A DNA stretch of 64,000 nt from Chloroflexota bacterium (GTDB taxonomy: Bacteria; Chloroflexota; UBA5177): positions 144,008 through 208,007 of the forward strand of contig JBPCMQ010000060.1 of NCBI GenBank assembly GCA_051002135.1, given 5' to 3'. Each line of letters opens with the position of its first letter. The first letter of the stretch is position 1. The notes under the pieces were generated by a model. The model worked only from the letters and a program-made list of their open reading frames with translations. It did not search any database and was not told the origin of the DNA. This document shows positions 2,687 to 62,565 of this stretch, piece by piece. The position numbers were made by a program, and so were the translations under genes.

Positions 2687-3216
2687 GGTAGGTCCCCAGT
2701 CCACGCCAATCGCAGGAGGCACGCGGGAATGGTGACGGGCCGGCCGGCGAATGCCTGGACGAACCACGCTGTGAATCGGAGCACCGCCAGCACTAGGTCT
2801 CGGCAGATGGAAGGTCGATCCTGGGGTGCGGTCCGCTCAATATGAAGCGAGCAGACATCCAGAATGCCCTGAAGGAGGAAGAGAAGTGGGCGGCTGCCGG
2901 CGGTCCACTCGCTGCTCCAGGCTTCTCGTTGCCGTTGTGACAGGAGCTGGTGACAGTTGAGGCAGGTAGGAATCGTCCATGTGGAGTTCCGCCTCCCGGC
3001 GACATGATTATCTTCAAGCGGTCCCCGGCATTCGCAGATTGAGCACCAGCCCTGCCGGCGACGATGGCCGTCGGCGCAGTTCAGGCACACAACCGTCCCA
3101 GCCACCTTGCGCACGCATGTCTGGTAGTACTCGCCGCAAGCACATGGTCCCAGCTCAGGCCGCACGACTGGCACCGTTCTCCGACGAAAACATGCGTTCA
3201 AAGTCCCCTGAGTCAA
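2683..3216 (-). CDS. HNH endonuclease-like zinc-finger protein
   Basis: CLNC...GH...EDNH...N...CLNCH arrangement (CxxC/HN/CxxCH) consistent with an HNH nuclease fold. Its TGA stop overlaps the PolB ATG (ATGA at 2683-2686), suggesting translational coupling. The ORF begins at a TTG; the true start may lie downstream. Confidence 0.6.
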   Translation of the reverse strand: MTQGTLNACFRRRTVPVVRPELGPCACGEYYQTCVRKVAGTVVCLNCADGHRRRQGWCSICECRGPLEDNHVAGRRNSTWTIPTCLNCHQLLSQRQREAWSSEWTAGSRPLLFLLQGILDVCSLHIERTAPQDRPSICRDLVLAVLRFTAWFVQAFAGRPVTIPACLLRLAWTGDLP

Positions 3217-3883
3217 AGTCTTGTTCGTCCAGCCATTCGAGCACCACGTTCAAATCTGTCTCCAGCCGGTACTGATTACCATCGACATCGCGGATGATGG
3301 TGTGTTTGAACCGTGCCAGAGATTGGTGCCCCTTACCGTTCTGGGCATTCCCGACAATGGCCCAGTACGTTCCCATCCGAGACAGATTCCTTTTGTCAAG
3401 GTCCACAGGAGGAAAGTACTCACCGTCGGACGTGAGAATGATTGAATGACCTGCCGGTCGTATACCCCAGCGGCGCGAGGTCCTGTCAGGCCGGTCAAGG
3501 AGCTGGTGCTCCTCGTTGACACGTCTCACCGTCTCCGGTGTTGTTCCCGCCTTCCTTGCCGCCGTTGTCAGTGAGTCGCCTTGGCTGATGTACTTAACGG
3601 TTTGGTAGTACTTGTCGAGCGTGCTTCCAGGTATACGTTCGATCTGGCCGATAGCCCGTAGACGAGAGATGGACGATTCACCTCTGGAAGAACGCGCATG
3701 CCCGCGCTGTTGAGCCTTGGTCAATCCAGGATGTGAACTGCCTTTTGTGCGTAAGTCGTATTCACTCGACTTGTAGATGCCGGGCGAAGCGCGTTGAATG
3801 CTACGAGCGGCTTCGCGCCCACTGACCTGCCGCGTTCTTCCCGTTTTCTTGTTGGTGAGGGTGTAGGTCCGGCGCGTGCTCAT
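3155..3883 (-). CDS. Hypothetical protein with a predicted helix-turn-helix region (element-associated)
   Basis: 242-aa ORF upstream of HNH/PolB on the same strand. The segment DKYYQTVKYISQGDSLTTAARKAGTTPETVRRV looks like an HTH. No family was recognised beyond that. Confidence 0.45.
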   Translation of the reverse strand: MSTRRTYTLTNKKTGRTRQVSGREAARSIQRASPGIYKSSEYDLRTKGSSHPGLTKAQQRGHARSSRGESSISRLRAIGQIERIPGSTLDKYYQTVKYISQGDSLTTAARKAGTTPETVRRVNEEHQLLDRPDRTSRRWGIRPAGHSIILTSDGEYFPPVDLDKRNLSRMGTYWAIVGNAQNGKGHQSLARFKHTIIRDVDGNQYRLETDLNVVLEWLDEQDFDSGDFERMFSSENGASRAA

Positions 3884-4383
3884 GACGCCGGCTCGCGGCC
3901 AATCGTGCCTTGGGTGGAGGGATGTTCCTGCCTAGTGCTACACTGATTTGACATTGTTTATTCCTAAACCTTGCCCTGTTGGAACCTTTGGTCGGGAAAC
4001 CAGCAGGGCAATTTTGTATTTGGCGCTATGTCGTGGCCGGGTGAGGCTCCCCTTTGCCGGACTGCTTCGAGGCGTCCCTATCCACGGGCATACAGGGACT
4101 CGGAAGGGAATGAAGTTGAAGATAATGGTCGAGGGCCATGGCAACGATGGCACTACGAGTGAGGCCGGTTCGTGTCGAAACTCGCCTCACAGCGTTTCCC
4201 AGAGACTGCGGGAGCATTACGGAAAACGCTGCCCGATCAACGCCGTTCTTGAGGTCATTCATCGGTGGTTGACTCCTGTAGGCTGGTTGTTAAAGGCACC
4301 CATCCGGCAGGCCTTGGGCACAGTCTCCCATTTGGTCCAAACATGACTTCCCGCTAAAATGTAGGTAAATACCGTCATGAGGA
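3884..4383. promoter_or_regulatory. AT-richer divergent intergenic region between the leftward HTH-HNH-PolB genes and the rightward HTH-Cas1 genes (putative divergent promoters)
   Basis: A ~500-bp stretch with visibly lower GC (for example ctacactgatttgacattgtttattcctaaacc) lacking a convincing ORF, flanked by divergently oriented genes. Confidence 0.3.
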
Positions 4384-5370
4384 ATGCGAGCTTTGGATCG
4401 GACACACACGATACCGGAGCTGGTCGCGGCAGCCGCTTCAAGCAACGTTGTGGTGAGCGAGCGCCAGATCGTTGAGTGGTGCCGGGACGGCCTTTTACCC
4501 ACGCCCTCACGACCTTCAATTCCGGGAAAACGTGGTCGTGGCCCGCTACGTTTCCCAGAGCCGGCTCCGGATGCCGTCGCATGGCTCGGTCGCTGGCGAC
4601 GCTCGATTGACGGAATTGAGCGGGTGAAGACGTGGCTCTGGCTTGAGGGCTTTGACTACGTCAGTACTGATGGCACCGCGATACAAGATGCTCTGAACTT
4701 GTGGATGAGAGCGGTATGGACAACGTTTCAGGCCGTATTCCCAGGGCTAACCGACACTGCGACGTTGCCGTCCGGAGAAGACTTAGGAATAAATGACGAG
4801 CGGCGAGACTCGATCCTGGATACGTTGGACAGGATCGTGACTGCACCTCTCGAAAACTCTGGCCATCAAGCCGGGCTAAGAGAACAAACAGATATCTCAA
4901 CGGCCCTGCTTGGAGTCCCGGTTAACGTGGAAAACTCCTCGGCTCCCTCCGCATTGTTGGCACTGGACGCTCTTAACAATCACTCGGCTGTTCGTCTTCC
5001 CATTAGCGCCATCCTCCAAACGCTTTGGGACCGTCAACCATCGATGGACGACTTCTACGACAAATTAGGACTGCCTGCGCTGATTCAAGGGGGAATTGAC
5101 ATTCACCACATTCGCCGGGTTTGGCAGGGAATAAGTGCGGCAGTTGAAGTTTTAGCATCGCCTGGCGTGCCGTCAGAGGTTCAAAACCTTGTGCCCCTAC
5201 TTCCGTTTCTCCAGGAAGTTCAGCGGCGATCCTTCGCCAGCGATCCCCGACTCATAACCATGGTGCTTGCTCTCATGATGCGCGTCGCTCGGCCTGGTGA
5301 TGCTGAACGATATGCCCGACGTATGGTGAATCGAAGGAATCGTATTCGGACGCACAATGCCACTCCGTGA
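4384..5370 (+). CDS. Hypothetical protein with an N-terminal excisionase/MerR-like HTH (HTH_17-like) domain
   Basis: The N-terminus IPELVAAAASSNVVVSERQIVEWCRDGLLP resembles Xis/HTH_17 DNA-binding domains. The gene overlaps the downstream cas1 by 14 nt, suggesting co-transcription. Confidence 0.55.
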   Translation: MRALDRTHTIPELVAAAASSNVVVSERQIVEWCRDGLLPTPSRPSIPGKRGRGPLRFPEPAPDAVAWLGRWRRSIDGIERVKTWLWLEGFDYVSTDGTAIQDALNLWMRAVWTTFQAVFPGLTDTATLPSGEDLGINDERRDSILDTLDRIVTAPLENSGHQAGLREQTDISTALLGVPVNVENSSAPSALLALDALNNHSAVRLPISAILQTLWDRQPSMDDFYDKLGLPALIQGGIDIHHIRRVWQGISAAVEVLASPGVPSEVQNLVPLLPFLQEVQRRSFASDPRLITMVLALMMRVARPGDAERYARRMVNRRNRIRTHNATP

Positions 5371-6784
5371 GTACCGGCACCTCACGTGCCCCCAGTGTGA
5401 GGCATCATTTGTCACCAAGGAACGCACACAAACCTATTGCTCGCGTGCCTGCTCATGTGCCGCCATGCGTTTGCGCCTTGCCGAAACACGAGCGTCCGGC
5501 GAGACTCCTGGACATGGTGGCACCGCTGCCGAGACTCGCCGTGCGTCCCTTGCAAAAAGACGTGCATCCGGCGAGGTTATGGGATGGGCTCTGCACAGAC
5601 AGAAGATGGCAGATGGAGAGGAGCGCATAGCGTCGCTTGATGGCCGGCCGGTCCTCGTGCCGGCACGAAACGGTGTGCCCGAGCACTTGAAGTTTACGCT
5701 CGACGGCGATGCCTACCGAGATGCCGGTGAACGCTGGGAGGTCCGTGCCGGCGCCATGGAGGCCTCGGCCACCCTGGTGTTGGCCGGCCGAGGATGTGGG
5801 CTGCGAGTCCTTCGAGGTGATCTTGTCGCACAACCAGGGCTCACGCACACGACCTGCGACGGTGAGGAGCGGCGCCTGTACCGAGGGCAACACGGAATCG
5901 AAACCATTGTGCTGGTGGGAACGGCCGGATCGGTGACCTTGGCTGCACTTCAGTGGTGCCGCGAGCAGGACATCACGCTCCTATCAGTGGATCGTGAGGG
6001 ACGCATCAGCGGTGTTGTCTCACCGGTCTCACCGGCCGCAGCGCATCTTCGGCGACTCCAGTACACGCTCCTTCCGCTCCACCTCGCCAGGATGCTGGTC
6101 TTATGGAAGCTCCGAGAATGCTGCCGCGACGAGCGAAGCTCCCAGCTGGAGGAGTACGCTCGACGCTGCGAGGACGCGGCACCCGTCGAGACGCTTCGGA
6201 CGGTAGAAGGCCAGGCCGCACGGGTCTACTGGCAGAGCTGGGAAGGCCTGCCTCTTACCTGGGTCGGGCCTCCCGTCCCTCCGCTCTGGCATCGCTTCGA
6301 TGGTCGAATATCGCCGCTATCGCAGTCCGGACGCCATGCGACACATCCCGTGAACGCAATGCTGAACTTTGCCTATGGCGTTCTCGCGGGCCACGTCGAG
6401 CGCTGCATCGTCTCCCGAGGCCTCGATCCCGCGATGGGCTCCCTGCACGCTCCGAAGGATGGCCGGCCCTCCCTCGTCTACGACCTCATGGAGCCCTTGC
6501 GCCCGCACGTTGATGCCCGGCTTCTCCCGTGGGCGTCGTCCCAGAGCTGGCGGCGCATCGACTTCCCCGTGTCCGTGTCCGGCGTCGTGCGGCTCAATCC
6601 GCAGCTGGCACGGTGCGTGGTGATTGTGGCGTCTCTACCGGCTGCCGCAGTGGAAGGCGTGCTCGACGCGTACGTCGGATTCCTGCGGTCGTCGGCCGGG
6701 CCGCGTGTGGGCGACCCCGAACGGTCGCGTGCTCGGGCGGGCCGTGCTCTGGGGAAGCGGCAGAAGCGGCTGACGAGGGCGTAG
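5357..6784 (+). CDS. cas1: Cas1-family integrase (casposase-like), with an N-terminal CxxC...CxxC zinc-ribbon extension
   Basis: Cas1 signature region NAMLNFAYGVLAGHVERCIVSRGLDPAMGSLHAPKDGRPSLVYDLMEPLRPHVD. Compare E. coli Cas1 [23 protein letters not shown], which contains the conserved His and Glu. The N-terminus CPQCEASF...CSRACSCAA is a Zn-ribbon. There is no cas2, cas4 or repeat array nearby; PolB lies 2.7 kb away. Confidence 0.85.
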   Translation: MPLREYRHLTCPQCEASFVTKERTQTYCSRACSCAAMRLRLAETRASGETPGHGGTAAETRRASLAKRRASGEVMGWALHRQKMADGEERIASLDGRPVLVPARNGVPEHLKFTLDGDAYRDAGERWEVRAGAMEASATLVLAGRGCGLRVLRGDLVAQPGLTHTTCDGEERRLYRGQHGIETIVLVGTAGSVTLAALQWCREQDITLLSVDREGRISGVVSPVSPAAAHLRRLQYTLLPLHLARMLVLWKLRECCRDERSSQLEEYARRCEDAAPVETLRTVEGQAARVYWQSWEGLPLTWVGPPVPPLWHRFDGRISPLSQSGRHATHPVNAMLNFAYGVLAGHVERCIVSRGLDPAMGSLHAPKDGRPSLVYDLMEPLRPHVDARLLPWASSQSWRRIDFPVSVSGVVRLNPQLARCVVIVASLPAAAVEGVLDAYVGFLRSSAGPRVGDPERSRARAGRALGKRQKRLTRA

Positions 6785-6975
6785 GGACACGACGGGCGAT
6801 GGTGCTCAATGGGGGTAGTGGAGCTCCCTCGGGCGATGGACACGGGCCCGAGCGCTGGGCGCTAAGCGGTCCCCGGAGCGATATGGGGTCAGAGGCCATA
6901 CGGGCTATGGAACGGCGTGGTGAGGCGCAGGGAAGCCTGTTTATGGTCGTCTAAGGTAGGTCGTGTCATGGCTAG

Positions 6976-7035
6976 GCGAGGATCGTTAGCTGCGAGGATC
7001 GTGCAGGCCGCCTTCGCCTGCTGCGAGGATCGTGC
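6976..7035. repeat. Three direct copies of GCGAGGATCGT(GC), two of them as CTGCGAGGATCGTGC with a 31-bp period, just downstream of cas1
   Basis: Copies at 6976-6986, 6990-7004 and 7021-7035. Nearby are the subrepeats cgggcgatgg (x2) at ~6793 and ~6829. The function is unknown; they may be terminal subrepeats of the element or binding sites. Confidence 0.5.
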
Positions 7036-7531
7036 GAGTGCTTTGACAGCTTGCGAGCGTCAGCGAAGATGACGAAACTGTTGACGGAGAGAGGCGATGA
7101 GGGAATACAGGCGTCACCTAGAGGGCAGCGTCTATATACCCCTCATGTTATCACAGGGGGTTTACACTACACGATTTCGAGGGGGCTTGACGGACGCTCG
7201 TCTCGCGGACGTACTGTCTGTCCTGGCCGCGGTAGACTCGGCCAGCGTCAGTCTCGCCATTGGACCATCCGCAGGCGCGGCTTTGAGAGAGCAAGGCCGG
7301 TCCGGACACTGGAACGTCCCGCCGGTCGCAGGGCACCTACCAGTTCGCAGTCACGCTGTTGAAAAAAGCCTGCGACATGTCGCTACGATGGAAGTGGCCC
7401 GGCAATGCCGGGTTGGTCGGGACCGGGCCCAGTGGGACCGAAAATGAGAGGGACTCTGGGATTCCATCTTCGATGTCGCCCCGTGGACCGCTCGCGCTTT
7501 CATACAGAAGGGCGACGCACAGCGCAGGCCA

Positions 7532-8116
7532 GTGCGAAGGATTCTCGGTATGCCGCATAGAAAGAAGGTTATCTTCAGCATTGCGCTTAGCGCGGGAGCA
7601 ACAATCCCAATAGCTCGTGCCGTGGCCAGACCGCTATCGGTCGTTCGCGCCGCTGGGGCTGTCTCAATTCCTCCCCACTGCCGGCCTGGCCCCAGGCCCA
7701 GAGTGCTCTCCTCACTGGTCGGTCCCGGCGTCGGATACTATCCGATCTGGTCGATAGGGATCGGCGGGCATCCAGCTACCCTCCCCTGCGGCAACTCGTG
7801 TGTACGGACCCCCCACGGCTGGGGACACAAGAACCTGCTGGTGGTTGCGCCACAGTTCCGCGGCCGAGTCACACTTCAGGGCAGTAAGGTCCACGGAGCG
7901 GGTCGTCTGTGGTTCGAGAATGAGGACCCCTACCATATCATGGTGAAGTACGTGAAGATCCTGCACATTGATCCCGATTGGCAGCGTATCCCTTCCGCGA
8001 AACGGGCCTACATCCAGTTCCCCGGCGGCATCATTTTCCCGCGACCCGGTCTGTACTACCTGAATGCACATTATCCCGGTGACAGTTGGTGTTTCACCTT
8101 TACTGCTCGCCACTAG
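7532..8116 (+). CDS. Hypothetical secreted protein (N-terminal signal-peptide-like segment)
   Basis: 194-aa ORF. The N-terminus MPHRKKVIFSIALSAGATIPIARA looks like a signal peptide. It is Gly/Pro-rich and no family was recognised. Confidence 0.4.
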   Translation: MRRILGMPHRKKVIFSIALSAGATIPIARAVARPLSVVRAAGAVSIPPHCRPGPRPRVLSSLVGPGVGYYPIWSIGIGGHPATLPCGNSCVRTPHGWGHKNLLVVAPQFRGRVTLQGSKVHGAGRLWFENEDPYHIMVKYVKILHIDPDWQRIPSAKRAYIQFPGGIIFPRPGLYYLNAHYPGDSWCFTFTARH

Positions 8117-8729
8117 CCACGCGCACACGTATTGAAGGATCTCGCTGTCCGCTGCGACAGCCGCGTCACTACGCACGAAACTGTCCTCGCCAGGCAGTTA
8201 CATACATCGTCGATGACTGCTGGATAAGTCGGACCCGTGCGCTCAATGACGGAAGCGAGAACGGAGCGCGTCAGGTCGCGAGGGATGCCATCAACGGATC
8301 GGACAACCCCTGGGGGCTCGCCGTGACGATACGCATCAATCGTGATCAAGGCAGTCCCGCACGCCGTTACCCGCTCGATGAACGCGGGCTCCAAGTCACT
8401 CTTGTGCCCTCCGCGGCTGTGAGCGTCGACAATCGCGTCATAGGGTCCTGCTCCGTGACCGCGCCAAATGAACCAGGTACATCACGCCCGCGTCGAACGA
8501 TCTCCGGGTCCGGAATCAGTGCGTTCCTCCGGACGAGTCTCCATTCTTTGATTCGCGTTTGTTGGCGCCTGGCGCACGCACTGCAACCCCCCGCGCACGC
8601 TGCGAGTAGGTTATCCGATGCCCTACCGCTTGTTCGCCCAAACATCCGGGTCACAGCCTGACGCGTCATGTCAGGTTCGTTCTGCAAGCTGGGCAGGTGC
8701 AGGCGATAGACCGTGTCGCCGACGGGCAC
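8113..8729 (-). pseudogene. Possible frameshifted gene remnant: two consecutive minus-strand ORFs in different frames
   Basis: ORFs 8367..8729 and 8113..8394 look protein-like (not Arg-rich) but overlap in different frames. The surrounding 8100-9200 region has only short overlapping ORFs on both strands. Confidence 0.25.
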
Positions 8730-9246
8730 ATCTCATTCAGCGGCGGTCCCGGCATGTTTTCGCGCAGATCGATGTGGGCATCACAGGTCTGGAGTATTGC
8801 CAGTCCTTTCGTGTCGATAGAGCTGACTCGCGAGGCGGCGCCCTCGGTCAGAGTTATCCGGGGAGGGCAAACCCTCACGGCAACCTTTAAGCCCAATCCG
8901 GGTGCTACCGGCAAGCCCTTCTACATGGATTCGACGTACTGCTCGACCGGTCCATCGGGCTCGTGGACGAACCAACATCTTCCCTGGACGATCCCCCTAC
9001 GCGACCCCCGTCTATCCGTACTGCAAGCAGCGGCAGTGGTGGCACGCTCATCGGGTGGCCGAATCATGCGGTGGCATTTGTGCGATACATCAGGCACTGA
9101 CAGCCGGACACTGTCGAGGAGCGACCCAGCGACGCGACGGCCCGCTCCGCACGGCAACGGTTGTCCTTGCTGATCCGATGGTCTTGTTTGTGTAGTCGAA
9201 AGGTCGCGATATTGCTATAGAGCGGGCTTGAGTATATACTAAAGGC

Positions 9247-9453
9247 ATGAGAAAAACAACCCTTACGATTGATGACGAGCTTATCGCGCAGGCCAAAGAA
9301 GCCTTGGGCACAACTGGTCTGAAAGCGACGATCGATGCCGCTTTGCGTGAGGCGGTCAAGGCGCGAGCACGGCAAAATCACGCGGAGCGGCTACGGACCA
9401 TGAACGGGCTCGACCTGGACAAACCTGAGGTGATGAACCAGGCGTGGGAATAG
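9247..9453 (+). CDS. vapB: Type II antitoxin VapB (DUF2191/RHH-like)
   Basis: [21 protein letters not shown] is the classic VapB N-terminus. It is 68 aa and overlaps the downstream PIN toxin by 10 nt. Confidence 0.8.
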
Positions 9454-9863
9454 ACGCGACATACATGGTGGACACGAGCGCTCTTGCGCGCTTCCCCAAC
9501 CCGGCGGTCTCTGCCATTCTCGCGCCGCTTTTCGCCGCTGGTCGCGTCGCTACCTGCGGGATCATCGATCTAGAGGTGCTCTACAGCGCGCGCAACCGGG
9601 CAGACATGATGGCACTGCGGCGTGAGCGTCGGGGCTTCGTCCAGGTACCAATCCTCCCTGCTGACTTCGAGCGCGCACTTGATGTTATGACCCTCCTGGC
9701 CCGACTCGGGCAGCATCGATCCGCCCGTATACCTGATCTCCTGCTGGCTGCGACGACCGAACGCGCGGGCCTGTGTCTGCTCCACTACGACCAGGACTTC
9801 GACAGGATCGCCGAAGTTACTGGACAGTGGGCAGAGTGGGTTGTGCCACGTGGCTCCCTGTAG
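9444..9863 (+). CDS. vapC: Type II toxin VapC (PIN-domain ribonuclease)
   Basis: The PIN N-terminus YMVDTSAL contains an acidic residue, and HYDQDF lies near the C-terminus. It is 139 aa and paired with vapB. Confidence 0.85.
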
Positions 9864-17935: not shown

Positions 17936-18320
17936 AGTCCAAGCAAGCCGGGCGGTTGCGTGCGGCGAGGCCGTACGAGGAAAGTCCGAGCTCCATAGAG
18001 CAGGGTGCTGGGTAACACCCAGTGGGGGCGACCCCAAGGAAAGTGCCACAGAAACATACCGCCGGCCTTGGCCGGCAAGGGTGAAATGGTGAGGCAAGAG
18101 CTCACCGGCAGCAGGGTGATCTGCTGGCCGGGTAAACCCCACCTGGAGCAAGACCGTGTAGGAAGGCGATGCGCTCCGGCGCGTCGGGGCTGCTCGTCCT
18201 GGTCCTTCGGGTAAGGTCGCTTGAGGCAACGAGAAATCGCTGCCCTAGATAGATGATCGCCACCCGCTCGGTCGCAAGGCCGGGAGGGAACAGAACTCGG
18301 CTTACGGCTTGCTTGGGCCC
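17936..18320 (+). ncRNA. rnpB: RNase P RNA (bacterial type A)
   Basis: Conserved elements are GGAAAGTCCGAGCTCC, AGGGTGCTGGGTAACACCCAG, GGAAAGTGCCACAGAAACATACCGCC, GGTAAACCCCACC and ACAGAACTCGGCTTA. P1 pairs 17939-17950 with 18305-18316. All ORFs in this interval are spurious. Confidence 0.9.
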
Positions 18321-34883: not shown

Positions 34884-36203
34884 TCATGGCGCGAGCTTGA
34901 CCCCCATCTCTGGTAACCAGTCCAGCGTCAGCGCGGCGCTCCAGCTAAAGCTGTTGGTTCCAAACCCTTCACCCGTTTGCGGATGGTAATACTCCCGGAA
35001 ACCTTCTCGTGAGACCATATCCAGCGTTCGTGAGCGGATGATCTGGGCAAGATCGGGCCGGCCGTAGGTATCCAGTCCCTGCGAGACCATCCAGTTGGTG
35101 TTGACCCACGTTGGCCCGAGCCAGTAGTTCTCGGGGTTGTAATACGGCGACGCCACCGACGTGGTTGGCACCGGGTAACCATCGGGCCAGAATCGGTCGG
35201 GGGTGAGCCACGAGTCGATCATGGGGTAGGCCCTCTCTTCCGTCGCGACGCCTCCCCAGAGGGTGTGCAGACCAGCGATCGTATCGTCCCGAAGAAGACG
35301 ATTCGACACTCGATCGTAGCTGTAGTACGTTCGCCGCTCCGGATCCCAGAGCTTGTCGTTGATGGCCTGCCTCGTCCGCCGGTTCCAGCCCTCGATCTCG
35401 CTCGAGTCCTCTTCGACGAGCGCAGCGATCGCCGCCAGGTCGTCGTTCGCGCGGCAGAGAATCGAGTTGAACAGCACGTCTTCGACGGCGAGAGGCGCAA
35501 TCTTCAGATACGCCGCCTGGTCCCAGCTCACGGCACGCATCTGCTCCAGCAAGAACACAAACAGGTCGTAGTCCTTGTTTGTCGGACGATTCTCGGCCGC
35601 GACATGCAACAGGTCGAGTCGCTCGTATTTTGGCTTATATGTCATATGGACCCGGCTACCGGCATCGAGATAGGGTGGAGAGTTGTCGAGGCCGGACTCC
35701 CAGGGATGGACGACGGCGATCAAGCCGGATTGGTCGGGATCCCTGTCACGATAGAGGAAGCGGTGGTAGCTCAAGATCTTCGGAAAGACGTCGTCCAGAA
35801 AAGCCGTGCCGTTTCCCTCGTCGGAGAATCGTTCAAAGACACGGCGTGCGGCCGTCGCCAGAACGGGGGGTTGCGTGATGCCGGAGGTCTCGACGTCTTG
35901 CGGCGCGTCCGGTGAGCGGTGACATTGCCACACGTCGGGACCGGGGAAATAACCGGAGCCCTCCGGACTGAAGACAATCTGCGGAACCAGTCCATTGGCC
36001 CATTGGCCTCGTAGGAGTGACAGAATCTCGACCGCCGCCCGAGCGGGATCGTACCGAGAGATGCCGATGGCAATGAAGCACGAATCCCAGTTCCACTGAT
36101 GTGGGTAGAGGCTGGGAGCGGGCTTTGTAGATGTGCCCAGGTCGTTTTCCTTGAGCACATTTCTAGCCCTCTCTGCTAGCTGCGTCAAGTCGCCCATCGC
36201 CAT
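34884..36203 (-). CDS. Glycoside hydrolase family 63-like (mannosylglycerate/glucosylglycerate hydrolase-like)
   Basis: YPHQWNWDSCFIAIG and VHPWESGLDNSP match the (alpha/alpha)6-barrel GH63/MGH family. Confidence 0.8.
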   Translation of the reverse strand: MAMGDLTQLAERARNVLKENDLGTSTKPAPSLYPHQWNWDSCFIAIGISRYDPARAAVEILSLLRGQWANGLVPQIVFSPEGSGYFPGPDVWQCHRSPDAPQDVETSGITQPPVLATAARRVFERFSDEGNGTAFLDDVFPKILSYHRFLYRDRDPDQSGLIAVVHPWESGLDNSPPYLDAGSRVHMTYKPKYERLDLLHVAAENRPTNKDYDLFVFLLEQMRAVSWDQAAYLKIAPLAVEDVLFNSILCRANDDLAAIAALVEEDSSEIEGWNRRTRQAINDKLWDPERRTYYSYDRVSNRLLRDDTIAGLHTLWGGVATEERAYPMIDSWLTPDRFWPDGYPVPTTSVASPYYNPENYWLGPTWVNTNWMVSQGLDTYGRPDLAQIIRSRTLDMVSREGFREYYHPQTGEGFGTNSFSWSAALTLDWLPEMGVKLAP

Positions 36204-36264
36204 CGCGCGAATCCTCCCGGAAGTCGCGAGTACTCGCGGGTCTGACTGTCATGGCCAAAGACAC

Positions 36265-36340
36265 CCGCAGTGTTATACATCCGTAGTGTTATACATGCGC
36301 AGTGTTATACATCCGCAGTCTTATACATCCGTAGCGTTGG
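36265..36340. repeat. 16-bp tandem repeat (~4.75 units): CCGCAGTGTTATACAT / CCGTAGTGTTATACAT / GCGCAGTGTTATACAT / CCGCAGTCTTATACAT / CCGTAGCGTTGG...
   Basis: Intergenic, with no unique spacers, so it is not CRISPR. The final partial unit is the 5' arm of the REP-like element at 36329. Confidence 0.8.
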
Positions 36341-36361
36341 CCTTCAGGCCGCCTTCAGGCC
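36329..36361. repeat. REP-like palindromic element, copy 1: CCGTAGCGTTGGCCTTCAGGCC, then GCCTTCAGGCC
   Basis: A GGCC-TTCA-GGCC hairpin core, duplicated. It is intergenic. Confidence 0.6.
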
Positions 36362-37371
36362 AACTCTCGCGCCGGCGTCCGGCCGAGAGAAGCATCCCGG
36401 GCAAACTGCAGGCCCCTCGCGGTCGGCAGTGAATCCACGGTTGCCAGGTGCCGCGGCGGCTCCTGCTCTCGCAGCACGGCATGGATGTGCTGAATCGCCG
36501 CGGTGAAGGACGGTTCCGGTCCCGAAGGGTGTTCGACCGAGGTCTCGCCGCCGCACAAGATCTCGAGCGCGTCATCCGGAGAGGGATGGAAGGGGTTGGA
36601 CAGGCGCACTTCCCCTTCGCTGCAAATAATCCGGCAGAAGGTGTCCTGCTCTCTGCTCATACCACAAGAGAAGATGAGAGTGGATGCGTCGACGAAATCC
36701 AGGACTCCGGCTATCTCTTCATCAACTCCCTCGGCTGCCCGCTGGGCGAGGGCCGTTCCCCTTGCCGGTGGCCGCCCAAACAGCAGCGTGGCGAGATGGA
36801 TGCAGTAGCAGCCGACATCGTTCAACGCGCCACCGCCAAGCTCCGGCATCAAGCGAATGTTCGCGCGGCCTTGTAATTGAAAGTGAAAGTTGGACTCGAT
36901 GGAGAGCAGATCACCGATGTCGCCGCCTGTGACGATCTCGCGAAGGCGGTGGAAATGGCGGCGAAAGGGGAAAACAAAGGCCTCCCAAAGCAAGGCCCGA
37001 CTCTCGTGTGCGACTCGGAGAACCGTCTCGGTCTCCGCTTCCGACACACACAGCGGCTTCTCGCACAACACGACCTTGTTCGCGTCCATCGCGCGAATTG
37101 TCCACTCCGCGTGCAGGGAGTTGGGCAGGGCGACATAGACGGCATCGATCGACGGGTCATCGAGGACCGCGTCGTAACCCTCAACCGCTCGCTCAACCCC
37201 CTCGCTCGCCGCAAACGTCTCCGCTCGCCGCAAGTCGCGAGCTCCCACCACCGCCGCCTTCCCATCGCCTGCGGCTCGCAGGGCCGGCAGGAAGGATCCT
37301 CGCGCAATACTCGCCGCGCTCAAGATACCCCATCGAATCGATCCGTTGTCGTTCATTGCATCCTCCCACAA
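36355..37371 (-). CDS. Gfo/Idh/MocA family NAD(P)-dependent oxidoreductase
   Basis: The N-terminus IRWGILSAASIARGSFLPAL is a Rossmann fold, and VVLCEKPL is the signature. The start may be the internal ATG MNDNGS. Confidence 0.85.
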   Translation of the reverse strand: MWEDAMNDNGSIRWGILSAASIARGSFLPALRAAGDGKAAVVGARDLRRAETFAASEGVERAVEGYDAVLDDPSIDAVYVALPNSLHAEWTIRAMDANKVVLCEKPLCVSEAETETVLRVAHESRALLWEAFVFPFRRHFHRLREIVTGGDIGDLLSIESNFHFQLQGRANIRLMPELGGGALNDVGCYCIHLATLLFGRPPARGTALAQRAAEGVDEEIAGVLDFVDASTLIFSCGMSREQDTFCRIICSEGEVRLSNPFHPSPDDALEILCGGETSVEHPSGPEPSFTAAIQHIHAVLREQEPPRHLATVDSLPTARGLQFARDASLGRTPARELA

Positions 37372-37694
37372 AAAAACGACCTCCGGTTGGGGGCCGTTCT
37401 CTCATTATGCAGCCGGGTTACCGGCGACGCGCGGGCTGGAAGCACTCTGAGCAATGGACGGGATTGTCACCTCTGTGAACAAACGGGACGGATCCTGGCA
37501 CCCACGGCCGGCAGGGAATTGCTGGTAGTGTAGTCAACGTCGGGTCAGAGCTGGAAGAACACCCGGAACGGTCTCGAAAGCGCTTGCCGAATGCATTGCA
37601 GACGTATCATAACCCACCGTGCGCGGTGTACGAAATCATCGTGCAACGACAACCGGAGGACCGGCTACTGCAATAGTGTTGGGGCCAAAAAAAG

Positions 37695-37716
37695 CCGTAG
37701 CTTTGGCCTTCAGGCC
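37695..37716. repeat. REP-like palindromic element, copy 2: CCGTAGCTTTGGCCTTCAGGCC
   Basis: It has the same motif as 36329. It is intergenic and preceded by an A-run. Confidence 0.6.
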
Positions 37717-37764
37717 AAGTGTCTGCCTGCCGGTTAGATTGCGAAACGCGGTACCCACACGATT

Positions 37765-39024
37765 TCAATTGCTGGGTTTGGCCGACCCACGCAACGCTCG
37801 CCTTGCCAGCGGGTCGACGTGTCTGTCGACTTTGAGCTTTGTTGCCCGCAGGTACGATTTGAAGTCGCCGGCGGCTCTGCTCAGGGCGTCAAGGAGATTC
37901 ATATCGGGCCGAACATTGGCCTCCCACCACCACCGTGAGACGACCCACGTCCTATCCTCTAGCCGAGAGTCGATTCTGCCGATGAAGCGGCCGTCGTACA
38001 GGACCGGCAGGACGTAGTATCCCCACTGACGCTTGGCGGCCGGTTTGTACACCTCCCAGGAATACTTGAAGTCGTACAGCTGCTCGATCGCTTTGCGATC
38101 CCACATCATGCTGTCTAGTGGTGCCAGGATGATGGCCCGAGGCTCGATCGCGGGCCGGTCGAGCAGCTCGATCTCCGACGCCGGCACGTGATACAGGCTC
38201 ATGCCACTCCCCACCCGAATAGGTGTGAGATCACCCTCTTCCACAAGTTGTTCGATGGATCCGAGACGCGTGGCCGCTTCCCCGCACGCGCTCCATATGG
38301 CGGGTTCGGCTGATCGGCGTAGCAGACCGACCGCACGGTGGCGCTGCAGGACGATCCAGCGGTGGAACTCGTCGAGAGATGGCTCCGCGCTCTCCAAATA
38401 CGGGGCCGGAATCACGCGTTCCGGCCGGTCGTAGTAGTGACGCGTCCCCTGACGATGATGTGTGACGACGACACCCCGCAACCACAGCGCACGCAGAATC
38501 CGCTTGATTCGCGTCGGACCGTACCAGGAGTGACCCTCGCCGGCGCGCGAGCGGTCCTCGAACTCGAGGGAAGACAGCGGCCCGCGCGCGTCGATTTCGC
38601 CCAGCGCCGCCTGGACCGCCTCTGGATGGGCATCCAGAACTTCCCGGTCGTGCCATCCGTGATACGACGTTCGAATGGGAGCCCGCTTGGCCCAATGAGC
38701 CGAAGGAACTAGGCACGCCTGCTTATCCCAGGCATCGTACAGAAGCCTCTCCTGATAGGCGGTTTGGTGCCAATCGTCCACGCGGTAGTCGGGCACACGC
38801 GCCTGGAGCACGAGGTCGGGGTTGCATCCCAGAGGCTTCAGCGGGTCGTACTGAATCGTCCCCAGGCGATCGATCACGCCGGCGACGTCGGTCGGCGTGA
38901 AGTGGTATCGCTCGAGAAAGCGGCGAGCCTCTTCAGGAGAGATAGAGAGCGTCACGCGACATGATACGTACGCGCCGTGGGGCTGATGGGGTGACCAAAG
39001 TCTCCGATCACCCAGCCCGCACAT
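37765..39024 (-). CDS. Winged-helix DNA-binding protein of the AlkZ/YcaQ (HTH_42) DNA glycosylase-like family
   Basis: GTIQYDPLKPLG contains the Q-phi-D catalytic-type motif of AlkZ-like proteins. The protein is 419 aa. Confidence 0.7.
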   Translation of the reverse strand: MCGLGDRRLWSPHQPHGAYVSCRVTLSISPEEARRFLERYHFTPTDVAGVIDRLGTIQYDPLKPLGCNPDLVLQARVPDYRVDDWHQTAYQERLLYDAWDKQACLVPSAHWAKRAPIRTSYHGWHDREVLDAHPEAVQAALGEIDARGPLSSLEFEDRSRAGEGHSWYGPTRIKRILRALWLRGVVVTHHRQGTRHYYDRPERVIPAPYLESAEPSLDEFHRWIVLQRHRAVGLLRRSAEPAIWSACGEAATRLGSIEQLVEEGDLTPIRVGSGMSLYHVPASEIELLDRPAIEPRAIILAPLDSMMWDRKAIEQLYDFKYSWEVYKPAAKRQWGYYVLPVLYDGRFIGRIDSRLEDRTWVVSRWWWEANVRPDMNLLDALSRAAGDFKSYLRATKLKVDRHVDPLARRALRGSAKPSN

Positions 39025-42038: not shown

Positions 42039-42266
42039 GAGAGTCCCTTTCGCCTCCTTGTCAGTGAGTCCATTGCCATTCCTGGGGAGCCGTCTCAAAA
42101 TATGGCGACATCCTTCCACGTTGACAACGGTGCAGGATGCATGCCACAGACGGTCGCACGAGGAGGCGGTGAAGCGTCGGGTCATGCTCAGTGCGCATAA
42201 TTCGGTCATCGGGAAGCACGTTTCCGGACTGCTTCGCCCACGTGCGCGCTGGTCGCGGACAGAACG

Positions 42267-42288
42267 GGCCTGAAGGCCCGGAGCTACG
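42267..42288. repeat. REP-like palindromic element, copy 3 (inverted orientation): GGCCTGAAGGCCCGGAGCTACG
   Basis: It is the reverse complement of the CCGTAGC..GGCCTTCAGGCC motif. It is followed by a 15-bp direct repeat GAGCTACGAGAGTGA x2 (42281-42311). Confidence 0.6.
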
Positions 42289-42320
42289 AGAGTGATGAGC
42301 TACGAGAGTGAGACAGGACG

Positions 42321-42343
42321 GGTCTGAAGGCCCGGAGCTATGG
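42321..42343. repeat. REP-like palindromic element, copy 4 (inverted orientation): GGTCTGAAGGCCCGGAGCTATGG
   Basis: It is a degenerate copy 54 bp from copy 3, in the divergent intergenic region. Confidence 0.55.
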
Positions 42344-42376
42344 GCGTGAACGCCTCGTCGATAAAGGAGACATGAG

Positions 42377-61051: not shown

Positions 61052-61238
61052 GATGGAGGATACAGCGGGGGACGACTGGGAACGTCCACGCCGATATGCG
61101 TGCGTGACAGGTCACTCAATTGCGCGAGAAGACCTGGACGCGCTAACGCGAATCGAGCGCTTGGACGCCGGTGCCGAGGTACGTCTATGCCTCGAACACG
61201 GGGCGCCCGTCTCGGAAAGCATGCCGCCGCGCCGGCAT

Positions 61239-61263
61239 CCATAGCCCCGGCCTTCAGGCCGGG
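61239..61263. repeat. REP-like palindromic element, copy 5: CCATAGCCCCGGCCTTCAGGCCGGG
   Basis: It has the same GGCCTTCAGGCC core and lies intergenic upstream of tilS. Confidence 0.55.
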
Positions 61264-61362
61264 TTTGGGTACTTAACGAGCGTGTCATCTCCGCGTTTTG
61301 GGCCGGTCAACCGCGCGAGCTCACCAAGCGGTGTGGGCTACCCGCTCAACATGAAACCCGGC

Positions 61363-61833
61363 CTAAAGGACGGGGCTACGGACGAGACGAATGCGGCCTC
61401 CCGTCCAAACATACGTACGTGTCTGCGGCGAGAGACTGGGGCAGCAAAGCGGATCGCTGGGGCGGAATCTGTCCGATGTGACCGCAAAACCACCGGCGAC
61501 GAGTCGTACGGAGCGAATGTTCACGTACTGGTGACGCCAGACGGGCCGGGAGCGTCCGCCGACAAAGGCGTACACGGCCTGGCAGTGGCCGTCGGCGCTG
61601 CCGCTGCAAACCGCTCGATAGACATAGAGCAGCGAGCCGTCGGCGCCGCGAGCAGTGAGGCGGGCGGCGACGGTATAGCCATCGGCCCGAAGCACGGGAC
61701 TGTTGTCCACGGATTCCTGTCGAGTGCGCACGGAAGCGATGGGCGACCTAGAGCTGATGCTTGCACCGCAGCCGGTGAGGGCCACGCCGACAAATGAGAG
61801 GAAGACCATTCGCTGCACGCGCGCTCCACGCAT
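61363..61833 (-). CDS. Hypothetical lipoprotein
   Basis: MVFLSFVGVALTGC has an LTGC lipobox. Confidence 0.5.
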   Translation of the reverse strand: MRGARVQRMVFLSFVGVALTGCGASISSRSPIASVRTRQESVDNSPVLRADGYTVAARLTARGADGSLLYVYRAVCSGSADGHCQAVYAFVGGRSRPVWRHQYVNIRSVRLVAGGFAVTSDRFRPSDPLCCPSLSPQTRTYVWTGGRIRLVRSPVL

Positions 61834-62488: not shown

Positions 62489-62565
62489 GCGCCCGTAGCT
62501 CAGCTGGATAGAGCGTTAGGTTGCGGACCTAAAGGTCGGGGGTTCGAATCCCTTCGGGCGTACCA
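62489..62565 (+). tRNA. tRNA-Arg (anticodon reads GCG from the sequence)
   Basis: It folds as a cloverleaf. The acceptor is GCGCCCG/CGGGCGT, the D-arm is GCTC-AGCTGGATA-GAGC, the anticodon arm is TTAGG-TTGCGGA-CCTAA, and the T-arm has a GGGGG stem (two G-U pairs) with TTCGAAT loop. CCA is encoded. It closely resembles E. coli tRNA-Arg(ACG). Confidence 0.9.

What the first reader, a model, noticed from the sequence alone, without database searches (positions are those of the whole stretch)
36265..36361. REP-like palindromic repeat family (5 intergenic copies in the window), with one copy expanded into a 16-bp tandem array
The motif CC(G/A)TAGC-N3-4-GGCCTTCAGGCC (a GGCC/GGCC stem with TTCA loop) occurs at 36329, 37695 and 61239, and in inverse orientation at 42267 and 42321. 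All copies are intergenic. At 36265-36340 the 5' arm (CCGYAGTGTTATACAT) is tandemly repeated ~4.75 times and the hairpin core is duplicated. Between copies 3 and 4 a 15-bp segment (GAGCTACGAGAGTGA) is also duplicated. This looks like an active, slippage-prone REP/BIME-type element family, possibly mobilised by a RAYT/IS200-like transposase encoded elsewhere.
Basis: seen in the sequence. Interest (0 to 1): 0.55.

Follow-up and report, generated by a model that had tools for sequence, protein, structure and literature searches.

The report
GTAG-tagged REP palindromes, locally duplicated
A family of short hairpin-forming repeats (REP elements) lies between housekeeping genes of an uncultured Chloroflexota bacterium, and one copy carries a slipped 16-bp tandem array; this is an ordinary, already described kind of bacterial repeat, seen here in a little-studied lineage.

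Summary
The window holds six copies, not five, of CC(G/A)TAGC + N3-4 + GGCC-TTCA-GGCC at four intergenic sites (6 core matches against 0.28 expected). At 36265-36328 there is a 16-bp x4 array, and at 36340-36361 an 11-bp hairpin duplication.

The element has the anatomy of a GTAG-tagged REP (Di Nocera 2013). It has an unpaired GTAG tag, a 4-7 bp perfect stem whose outer pairs change in a compensatory way, and a 4-nt loop. It is extragenic and occurs as inverted and head-to-tail dimers. The same 23-nt design (GTAGC, 7-bp stem, TTCA) turned up in more than 80 other genomes. Most are Acidobacteriota, but Chloroflexota, Desulfobacterota-type, PVC, Clostridia and Bacteroidales MAGs also carry it. 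In those genomes 88 of 128 hits extend the stem (chance 1.6%), and only 14% lie in predicted genes.

The tandem arrays duplicate the 5' flank plus the tag. This is the kind of REP cluster already described, and replication slippage is the likeliest cause.

No RAYT/Y1 transposase lies in the window, its flanks or 119 REP-bearing loci (one doubtful case), and the window's full genome was out of reach. The array is identical in three assemblies, so current activity is not shown.

Verdict: new member of a known kind; low interest.

The parts
36265..36328 (+). Tandem array of four 16-bp units (CCGYAGTGTTATACAT). Each unit is 10 nt of 5' flank plus the CCGYAG tag of the adjacent REP, without the hairpin.
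   Evidence: TRF finds period 16, 4.4 copies, 89% matches at 36261-36331. The four 16-mers have 0-1 mismatch and occur nowhere else in the window or in 124 loci, except in the same locus of two other assemblies.
36329..36364 (+). REP copy 1. Tag CCGTAGC (36329-36335), outer stem GTT/AAC, core GGCC-TTCA-GGCC (36339-36350), and an 11-bp duplication GCCTTCAGGCC (36351-36361). The TGA stop of the Gfo/Idh/MocA gene (36357-36355, - strand) is the loop of the duplicated core.
   Evidence: Sequence. TRF finds an 11-bp unit x2.0 at 100%. CM hit 36326-36367, 31.5 bits, E=8e-5. The C-terminal tail ...ELA* is not conserved in homologues.
37695..37718 (+). REP copy 2: CCGTAGC-T-TTGGCC-TTCA-GGCCAA. It has the same outer-stem subtype as copy 1. 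It lies 47 nt downstream of the AlkZ-like gene's stop and upstream of the Gfo/Idh/MocA gene.
   Evidence: CM hit at 38.7 bits, E=3e-6.
42265..42289 (-). REP copy 6 (on the - strand): CTCGTAGC-TC-CGGGCC-TTCA-GGCCCG. It lies in the divergent intergenic region between the PRC/DUF2382 gene (-) and the beta-lactamase-family gene (+).
   Evidence: CM hit at 42265-42280.
42281..42311 (-). 16-bp tandem duplication (x1.9, 100% identical). As at 36265, the unit is 5' flank plus tag (ATCACTCT-CGTAGCTC on the - strand) without the hairpin.
   Evidence: TRF; - strand read.
42319..42343 (-). REP copy 5 (- strand): CCATAGC-TC-CGGGCC-TTCA-GACCCG. It has one stem mismatch, which is a G.T wobble on the + strand. 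With copy 6 it forms a head-to-tail dimer 54 bp apart. A further small hairpin, GGCGTTCACGCC (42343-42354), abuts its tag.
   Evidence: CM hit at 42315-42346.
61239..61263 (+). REP copy 3: CCATAGC-CCCGGCC-TTCA-GGCCGGG (7-bp perfect stem). It lies between the TilS gene and a 218-aa ORF.
   Evidence: CM hit at 43.4 bits, E=3e-7.
61357..61381 (-). REP copy 4 (- strand): CCGTAGC-CCCGTCC-TTTA-GGCCGGG. It is the inverted partner of copy 3. The tags face outward and the spacer is 87 nt, giving a REPIN-like head-to-head dimer.
   Evidence: Inverted repeat with 29-nt arms, 90% complementary. CM hit at 38.1 bits.

Best explanation
These are members of a GTAG-tagged REP (repetitive extragenic palindrome) family. 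Each copy is a 23-25 nt module made of an unpaired tag (CC-GTAG-C, sometimes ATAG), a perfect stem of up to 7 bp (three variable outer pairs plus GGCC), and a TT(C/T)A loop.

The copies are non-coding. By analogy with characterised REPs, they would have been spread as single-stranded DNA hairpins by a HUH/Y1 enzyme that reads the tag and the hairpin. That step is inferred; nothing here shows it.

Once a copy is in place it multiplies locally. Neighbouring copies share their outer-stem subtype: copies 1 and 2 have TTGGCC, 3 and 4 have CCCGGCC, and 5 and 6 have CGGGCC. They form a head-to-head (REPIN-like) pair and a head-to-tail pair.

The 16-bp x4 array, the 11-bp hairpin duplication and the 16-bp x2 duplication are short-range tandem duplications of pieces of the REP together with adjacent flank. 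Replication slippage at a hairpin-forming site is the likeliest cause (inferred).

The visible consequences are incidental. One copy supplies the last two codons and the stop codon of the upstream oxidoreductase gene. It also places a stable hairpin at that gene's 3' end, 150 nt ahead of the next gene's start.
For: - Non-random motif. There are six copies against 0.28 expected, and a CM recovers exactly these six.
- Hairpin under structural constraint. The outer stems differ between loci but stay complementary.
- Unbiased test in other genomes. 88 of 128 strict pattern hits extend the fixed GGCC stem by at least 3 further pairs, where chance gives 1.6%. The outer pairs are seen as GC, CG, UA and AU (that alignment was selected for pairing, so it is only descriptive).
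- Tag plus hairpin is the commonest design. In the REP-bearing loci there are 246 tag+hairpin elements against 31 in shuffles, and their loops are TTCA (151) or TTTA (34).
- Extragenic location. All four window sites lie in the roughly 16% that is non-coding. In 103 GC-rich loci, 11 of 76 copies lie in predicted genes against 80% predicted coding, p about 4e-35.
- Dimers. There is a 29-nt inverted pair at 61238/61354. 23 of 88 copies elsewhere have an inverted partner 1-84 nt away, and L028 carries a 58-bp head-to-head dimer repeated five times.
- Patchy, genome-specific distribution. No copies occur in 477 kb of control loci.
- Agreement with the published definition. Di Nocera et al. [quoted passage not shown]
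- Comparable characterised REPs. REPs of group 3 RAYTs are perfect palindromes of about 23 nt, and the Marinomonas REP has a TTTA loop (PMC8266576).
- Partial tag-side duplications recur in other genomes with different boundaries (L068 15-nt units, L105 12-13 nt). That fits slippage better than a precise enzymatic cut.
Against: - No RAYT or other Y1 transposase was found in the window, in 14 kb of added flank, or beside 127 of the 128 pattern hits in other genomes.
- The RAYT-like genes I could inspect are not flanked by this REP.
- Genome-wide copy number in the source organism is unknown. Six copies in about 78 kb, all within 36-62 kb, may not be representative.
- Window copies are somewhat degenerate: two have ATAG tags, stems are 4-7 bp, and two stems carry a mismatch. 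The family may therefore be old and inactive here.
- No array-length polymorphism is seen among three assemblies.
- The genome-collection scan used a fixed pattern, so the sequence identity of tag, core and loop across phyla was imposed by the search and is not a result.
Confidence: 0.75

Rival explanations
1. The hairpins are host-evolved transcription terminators or 3'-UTR stabilisers that arose at each site independently, not dispersed repeats.
For: Copies 1 and 2 lie just downstream of genes on the transcribed strand. In some other genomes the same element is followed by a T-run (L044, L109, L068). REPs are known to be co-opted for such roles (PMC3733652 abstract).
Against: - No window copy has a U-tract directly after the stem, and the terminator scan flags none of them.
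- Copies 5 and 6 lie in a divergent promoter region.
- An asymmetric, conserved tag and a conserved loop are not required of terminators.
- Copies occur in both orientations relative to transcription.
Confidence: 0.07
2. The 16-bp direct repeats, and possibly the GGCC-N4-GGCC palindromes, are protein-binding sites (operators or iteron-like) that regulate the downstream glycoside hydrolase gene.
For: The array lies 58-125 nt upstream of the MGH1-like hydrolase's start codon. Each unit on the transcribed strand contains TATAAC/TATAAG, which resembles a -10 box. A TetR gene is nearby.
Against: - The 16-mer is unique to this one locus.
- No sigma-70-like promoter is scored in the region.
- The unit starts with the REP tag, and a second 16-bp flank+tag duplication exists beside another REP at 42281. 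Duplication is therefore linked to the REP, not to this gene.
- The stems covary, which points to structure rather than sequence recognition.
- The same palindrome occurs next to unrelated genes in many phyla.
Confidence: 0.05
3. The copies are relics of the hairpin ends of an IS200/IS605-type element or of another MITE, and are not a RAYT-dependent REP family. Alternatively, they are a REP family with no dedicated transposase, as reported for CGTC repeats.
For: IS200/IS605 ends also have a guide tetranucleotide 5' of a subterminal hairpin (PMC8266576). No RAYT was found anywhere near a copy. CGTC-tagged REPs lack an associated transposase (PMC3733652).
Against: - There is no TnpA or TnpB, and no Pfam transposase hit, among the 30 predicted proteins I scanned in 30-64 kb; three short ORFs there and all ORFs in 1-30 kb were not scanned against Pfam.
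- Similarity between copies stops at the 23-29 nt module, so there is no longer shared unit.
- The GTAG tag is the hallmark of the RAYT-associated superfamily.
Confidence: 0.12

Closest known systems
GTAG-tagged REP superfamily (24 families; Di Nocera, De Gregorio & Rocco 2013, PMC3733652)
   Same: Both have an unpaired GTAG at one end and a 6-9 bp perfect stem with complementary subfamily changes. Both have a short loop and an extragenic location, mostly between unidirectional genes. Both form HH/HT dimers 20-100 bp apart and clusters that repeat flanking DNA in tandem. Some copies overlap gene ends.
   Different: This sequence type (GTAGC, N3+GGCC stem, TTCA loop) did not occur as a text string in the paper or its supplements. 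The published consensus sequences are in a figure I could not read. Acidobacteriota, the phylum with most hits here, was reported there only for TIR-flanked transposases, not for REPs.
GTAG-23 repeats of Chloroflexi (Thermomicrobium roseum, Roseiflexus castenholzii)
   Same: Same phylum as the window's organism. They are GTAG-tagged with G+C-rich stems and are largely found as clustered or grouped elements.
   Different: The GTAG-23 consensus could not be retrieved. A BLAST of this REP against the plasmid collection, which holds T. roseum chromosome 2, found no match. No GTAG-hairpin cluster lies in the first 50 kb of that replicon. Identity with GTAG-23 is therefore untested and seems unlikely.
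REPs of group 3 RAYTs (S. maltophilia REPSm/SMAG; Marinomonas MWYL1 REPMb; Corneloup et al. 2021, PMC8266576)
   Same: Same overall design: about 23 nt, GTAG followed by a perfect 7-8 bp palindrome and a 3-4 nt loop. REPMb has a TTTA loop whose first and last bases matter, and here the loop is TTCA or TTTA.
   Different: Those REPs flank a demonstrated cognate TnpA(REP) that binds and cleaves them in vitro. No such enzyme has been identified here. The hosts are Gammaproteobacteria.
REPIN-RAYT systems (Bertels & Rainey 2011; Bertels et al. 2017, PMC5581495)
   Same: An inverted REP doublet with a spacer is present: 61239/61357 in the window, and 23 of 88 copies elsewhere have an inverted partner.
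   Different: Many window copies are singlets or head-to-tail pairs. REPIN systems are defined by a single-copy RAYT flanked by the repeats, which was not found. In that work only RAYT groups 2 and 3 are linked to abundant flanking 16-mers.
E. coli BIMEs
   Same: Both are clusters of REPs in intergenic DNA.
   Different: BIMEs have regularly alternating orientations, defined linker motifs, and bulged imperfect palindromes of about 35 nt. Here the palindromes are short and perfect, the arrangements are irregular, and there are partial-unit tandem arrays.

Membership tests
GTAG-tagged REP superfamily | Unpaired GTAG (or a degenerate G-Y-R-G) tetranucleotide at one end of the stem-loop | tested here: met
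   Four of six window copies have GTAG and two have ATAG, always 1-4 nt 5' of the stem. For relatives elsewhere the tag was part of the search pattern.
GTAG-tagged REP superfamily | Short perfect or near-perfect stem (mostly 6-9 bp) with a short loop, and subfamilies that differ by complementary stem changes | tested here: met
   Window stems are 4-7 bp, two with one mismatch, and the loop is TTCA or TTTA. Three outer-stem subtypes keep their pairing. In other genomes 88 of 128 hits extend the stem by at least 3 bp against 1.6% by chance.
GTAG-tagged REP superfamily | Repeated many times per genome | tested here: inconclusive
   There are six copies in the 64-kb window, none in 14 kb of added flank and none in 477 kb of control loci. 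The rest of the source genome could not be read.
GTAG-tagged REP superfamily | Predominantly extragenic | tested here: met
   All four window sites are intergenic, with about 84% of the window coding. Elsewhere 11 of 76 copies lie in predicted genes against 80% predicted coding, p about 4e-35; the gene calls are rough, made with a GC3 filter.
GTAG-tagged REP superfamily | Association into HH/TT/HT dimers and clusters | tested here: met
   HH pair at 61239/61357 and HT pair at 42265/42319. 23 of 88 copies elsewhere have an HH partner, and L028 carries a dimer repeated five times.
REPtron / REPIN-RAYT system | A RAYT (Y1 HUH transposase, PF01797) gene in the same genome, flanked by the same REPs | not testable with these tools
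Within reach there is none (tblastn with 9 RAYT/TIRYT probes and an HMM). Of 119 REP loci only L094 has a Y1 gene. It is frameshifted, has one imperfect REP 50 nt downstream, and its homologues lack REP flanks.
REPtron / REPIN-RAYT system | Evidence of recent transposition (insertion polymorphism between close relatives) | not testable with these tools
   The three assemblies are identical. The next relatives are at most 66% identical in protein sequence and lack synteny.
E. coli-type BIME | Regularly alternating REP orientations with conserved linkers, and bulged imperfect palindromes | tested here: not met
   Orientations and spacings are irregular (11 bp, 54 bp, 87 nt, 1.37 kb) and the palindromes are short and perfect.
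Intrinsic (Rho-independent) terminator | G+C-rich stem-loop immediately followed by a U-tract on the transcribed strand | tested here: not met
   The terminator scan of 36000-37900 flags no REP copy, and two copies lie in a divergent promoter region.
CRISPR array | Identical repeats of 24-48 bp separated by unique spacers of similar length | tested here: not met
   Window arrays are head-to-tail with no spacers. The 58-bp periodic array in L028 repeats the whole unit, 'spacer' included.
Known structured RNA (Rfam) | Match to a curated covariance model | tested here: not met
   Only RNase P and one tRNA reach gathering score in the window.

The most novel reading that the evidence does not exclude
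One REP sequence type (CCGTAGC, 7-bp stem ending in GGCC, TTCA loop) is shared by genomes of at least seven phyla. The contigs range from 47% to 73% G+C, and they include AT-rich Clostridia and Bacteroidales MAGs in which the G+C-rich element stands out.

If binning errors do not explain this, the family is either spread horizontally together with an as yet unidentified mobilising enzyme, or it is maintained by a conserved host factor. Either would run against the view that REP/REPIN populations are lineage-specific and vertically inherited alongside a resident RAYT.

The recurrent tag-side partial duplications (16, 16, 15 and 12-13 nt in four genomes) could then be a footprint of that enzyme's cleavage and rejoining, and not of slippage.
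Probability: 0.15. Interest if true: 0.5.

Novelty: new member of a known kind. Interest (0 to 1): 0.25.

Why it matters
The practical value is mostly in annotation. These 23-nt modules explain the odd intergenic palindromes, the tandem arrays and one REP-derived stop codon in this Chloroflexota genome. The covariance model built here, or the pattern CCRTAGC-N3-4-GGCCTTCAGGCC, marks the same family in many Acidobacteriota and other uncultured lineages.

REPs have hardly been catalogued outside Proteobacteria and Cyanobacteria. Extending the GTAG superfamily to these phyla gives material for asking whether REP-RAYT partnerships exist there too. The answer does not change current understanding of what REPs are.

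Tried and rejected
- **RAYT near the REPs.** I ran tblastn with a recalled E. coli YafM sequence, the L094-type Y1 protein and six published RAYT/TIRYT sequences from PMC3733652 supplement 5. I also ran a recalled consensus of a ~190-aa RAYT-like type, and an HMM built from 40 homologues. The only hit was L094.
- **L094 as a REPtron.** Rejected. The gene is interrupted by about 100 nt after codon 15, the adjacent REP has an imperfect stem, and three homologous genes (L122-L124) have no flanking hairpins.
- **A second RAYT-like family.** I probed with the recalled ~190-aa consensus and inspected five real genes. None is flanked by the REP.
- **Orthologous empty site or array-length variation.** The metagenome scan with the hydrolase and a protein search with the oxidoreductase gave nothing closer than 60-66% identity and no synteny. 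The three assemblies of the same population are identical.
- **Terminator or promoter reading.** The consensus scans are negative at the repeats.
- **Known RNA family.** None.
- **CRISPR reading of the 58-bp periodic array in L028.** Rejected, because the 'spacers' are themselves repeated.
- **Comparison with GTAG-23 of T. roseum.** The consensus sits in an unreadable figure, BLAST against plasmids found no match, and the first 50 kb of chromosome 2 holds no cluster. I abandoned this.
- **Naive any-frame ORF mask for coding versus intergenic.** It was uninformative in G+C-rich DNA, where 94% is 'coding'. I replaced it with GC3-filtered calls.
- **Pair-count covariation on alignment A3.** It is circular, because the rows were selected for pairing. 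I did not use it as evidence.

Full report

Yes. The 12-mer GGCCTTCAGGCC, allowing one mismatch, occurs six times in the 64-kb window against 0.28 expected from dinucleotide-preserving shuffles.

Tandem Repeats Finder reports a 16-bp unit x4.4 at 36261-36331, an 11-bp unit x2.0 at 36340-36361 and a 16-bp unit x1.9 at 42281-42311. Reading the sequence and scanning for tag plus hairpin gives six elements, not five.

- On the + strand they start at 36329, 37695 and 61239.
- On the - strand they lie at 61357-61381, 42319-42343 and 42265-42289.

It has a TTTA loop and one stem mismatch, and it forms a 29-nt, 90% complementary inverted pair with the copy at 61239.

I built a covariance model from 38 relatives and three window copies. 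With filters off it ranks exactly these six first in the window, and the next hit has E=0.2. It finds nothing in 477 kb of unrelated control loci and nothing in 14 kb of extra flank fetched from other assemblies.

**2. Anatomy**

The consensus is CC-(G/A)TAG-C, then a stem of up to 7 bp whose inner four pairs are GGCC/GGCC, then a TT(C/T)A loop.

The three outer pairs differ between loci but remain complementary: TTG/CAA in copies 1 and 2, CCC/GGG in 3 and 4, and CGG/CCG in 5 and 6. Neighbouring copies therefore share a subtype, which points to local duplication after arrival.

The copies are arranged as follows:

- a direct pair 1.37 kb apart that brackets a Gfo/Idh/MocA oxidoreductase gene;
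- a head-to-tail pair 54 bp apart in a divergent promoter region;
- a head-to-head (REPIN-like) pair with an 87-nt spacer.

All four sites are intergenic in a window that is about 84% coding.

The surrounding genes are ordinary. They include an MGH1-like glycoside hydrolase, a Gfo/Idh/MocA oxidoreductase, an AlkZ-like glycosylase, PRC/DUF2382 proteins and a beta-lactamase-family protein. TilS, FtsH, BipA and shikimate-pathway enzymes are also present. Rfam recognises only RNase P RNA and one tRNA in the window.

**3. The arrays**

The four 16-mers at 36265-36328 (CCGYAGTGTTATACAT) each begin with the REP tag CCGYAG and continue with 10 nt of AT-rich flank. The fifth 'unit' is the true REP (CCGTAGC-GTT-GGCC...).

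The 16-mer occurs nowhere else in the window or in 124 fetched loci, apart from the same locus in two other assemblies. The second 16-bp duplication, at 42281-42311, has the same make-up. On the - strand it reads ATCACTCT-CGTAGCTC twice, followed by the hairpin.

The 11-bp duplication GCCTTCAGGCC doubles the hairpin core of copy 1. On the - strand, the TGA in the loop of the extra core is the stop codon of the oxidoreductase gene. The last residues of that protein (...ELA*) are REP-encoded, and the tail is not conserved among homologues.

Similar tag-side partial duplications, with other boundaries, occur in unrelated genomes: 15-nt units in L068 and 12-13 nt in L105. One Acidobacteriota contig (L028) repeats a whole 58-bp head-to-head dimer five times. 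[quoted passage not shown]

**4. Relatives elsewhere**

I scanned one genome for each of 185,579 species with GGCCTGAAGGCC-N3-4-GCTAYGG.

Most hits are Acidobacteriota (Vicinamibacterales, Terriglobia and others). Chloroflexota, 'Deltaproteobacteria'/Desulfobacterota, Planctomycetota, Verrucomicrobiota, Clostridia and Bacteroidales MAGs also have them, several with multiple hits per assembly.

The pattern fixed the tag, the core and the loop, so their identity across genomes is not a finding. The informative part is what the pattern left free.

- 88 of 128 hits extend the stem by at least three further complementary pairs, where chance gives 1.6%.
- 23 of those 88 have an inverted partner 1-84 nt downstream.
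- Tag+hairpin elements in these loci number 246 against 31 in shuffled sequence, with loops TTCA (151) or TTTA (34).
- Only 11 of 76 copies fall inside roughly predicted genes, against 80% predicted coding (p about 4e-35).

The hits without an extended stem include a recurrent in-frame coding match, seen in L005, L021, L053, L058 and L106. The REP-bearing contigs span 47-73% G+C. In the AT-rich L068 and L091 the G+C-rich element is conspicuous.

**5. Source organism**

Exact look-ups name the window's proteins as 'Chloroflexota bacterium' MAG proteins on a contig of 278,875 bp. The same DNA is also present in GCA_036816325.1, GCA_003244175.1 and JGI metagenome 3300009400. Across the array region, the window and two of these (the GCA_036816325.1 and JGI contigs) are identical base for base.

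**6. What it is**

The features match the published definition of GTAG-tagged REPs (PMC3733652). The 23-nt 'tag + perfect palindrome + 3-4 nt loop' design matches the REPs cleaved by group 3 TnpA(REP) enzymes, and the Marinomonas REP even has a TTTA loop (PMC8266576).

I therefore file the elements as a member family of that superfamily. Whether it equals the Chloroflexi family GTAG-23 could not be checked, because the consensus is in a figure. A BLAST against the plasmid collection, which contains T. roseum chromosome 2, found nothing.

**7. How it most likely works**

Shown:
- a dispersed, extragenic, structure-constrained hairpin repeat with a tag;
- local duplication, visible as shared subtypes, dimers and tandem partial units;
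- donation of a stop codon to one gene.

Inferred from established knowledge of REPs:
- dispersal as single-stranded hairpins by a Y1 HUH enzyme that reads the GTAG tag and the hairpin;
- tandem partial duplications produced by replication slippage at a hairpin-forming site;
- possible side effects on mRNA 3' ends.

**8. What was not confirmed**

I found no Y1 transposase in the window, its flanks or the REP-bearing loci, with one exception. I used nine protein probes and an HMM.

The exception is L094. It is a frameshifted ~304-aa Y1 gene with one imperfect REP 50 nt downstream. Three homologous genes have no flanking hairpins. Five genes of a second, ~190-aa RAYT-like family are likewise not flanked by this REP.

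With perhaps hundreds of REPs per genome and a single RAYT, seeing about one in 119 loci is uninformative. The test needs the whole genome, which these tools could not supply.

'Active' is also unproven. There is no polymorphism among the assemblies and no close relatives to compare.

**9. Rivals**

- Terminators: there is no U-tract, two copies lie in a divergent promoter, and the scan is negative.
- Operator or iteron array: the 16-mer is unique to one locus, the duplication is tied to the REP tag at two loci, and no promoter is scored.
- IS or MITE ends, or a transposase-less REP family: this cannot be excluded without the genome. However, the shared module is only 23-29 nt, and none of the 30 predicted proteins scanned against Pfam in 30-64 kb is a transposase.

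**10. Verdict**

This is a real, correctly recognised REP-type family with slippage-type arrays. It is a new member of a known kind and of low interest. The residual curiosity is its apparent spread across phyla and its unidentified mobilising enzyme.

Noticed in passing
window 1-6784 (with L207 1-11428): A 475-aa Cas1 (PF01867) is encoded at 5357-6784 (+). An overlapping 328-aa ORF lies upstream of it. A 242-aa ORF is at 3155-3883 (-), and a 1129-aa gene with no Pfam hit runs off the left end of the window. Beyond that lies a type I restriction-modification operon. No CRISPR array was detected in 1-9500. This could be a stand-alone Cas1 or an unusual defence island.
   Followed up: partly
L209 5275-5302, L210 5275-5302, L213 5278-5305: Genes of a widespread ~190-aa RAYT-like Y1 family (P0248, P0249, P0267) contain an in-frame, perfect 28-nt palindrome. 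It reads GTAGGGGCACG-nnGCnn-CGTGCCCCTAC, so it starts with GTAG and ends with CTAC, and it encodes RGTxxRAPT. 93 of the 120 best homologues carry that peptide, though the probe sequence contained the motif. This looks like a REP-like hairpin inside the transposase gene itself.
   Followed up: partly
L210 5001-5570, L213 5001-5597, L217 3001-3630: Three of five inspected genes of that RAYT-like family lie between hsdS and hsdR of type I restriction-modification operons, with overlapping start and stop codons.
   Followed up: no
L094 892-1912: A 304-aa-type Y1 transposase gene in a Puniceicoccaceae MAG is interrupted by about 100 nt after codon 15 (MARKQRIEYPGAVYH | ... | IISRGN...). It lies next to an ORF that, read by eye only, resembles a group II intron maturase.
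   Followed up: partly
window 36355-36364: The last two codons and the TGA stop of the Gfo/Idh/MocA oxidoreductase gene are supplied by REP copy 1, with the stop codon in the hairpin loop. The protein's C-terminal tail is not conserved in homologues.
   Followed up: yes
window 42343-42354: A further small hairpin, GGCGTTCACGCC, has the same TTCA loop but a different stem and no tag of its own. It abuts the tag of REP copy 5.
   Followed up: no
L028 2395-2648: An Acidobacteriota contig carries a 58-bp head-to-head REP dimer repeated five times in tandem. Two alternating variants of the partner hairpin are present (GGCGACCTCAAGGTCGCC and GGCGCCCCAAAGGTCGCC).
   Followed up: partly
L206 7500 onward (window about 58527): The GCA_036816325.1 contig is collinear with the window at 99.4% identity up to a point inside ftsH and then diverges completely. 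It is either a chimeric contig or a strain-level rearrangement. Its gene calls also differ from those of the other assemblies.
   Followed up: partly
window 37683-37718: Upstream of REP copy 2, GGCCAAA (37683-37689) can pair with the REP's own 5' arm TTTGGCC. This gives an alternative 7-bp hairpin that encloses the tag. On the transcribed strand a run of seven T follows 9 nt after the REP hairpin.
   Followed up: no
window 17940-18319 and 62489-62562: RNase P RNA (bacterial class A, 282 bits) and one tRNA gene.
   Followed up: no
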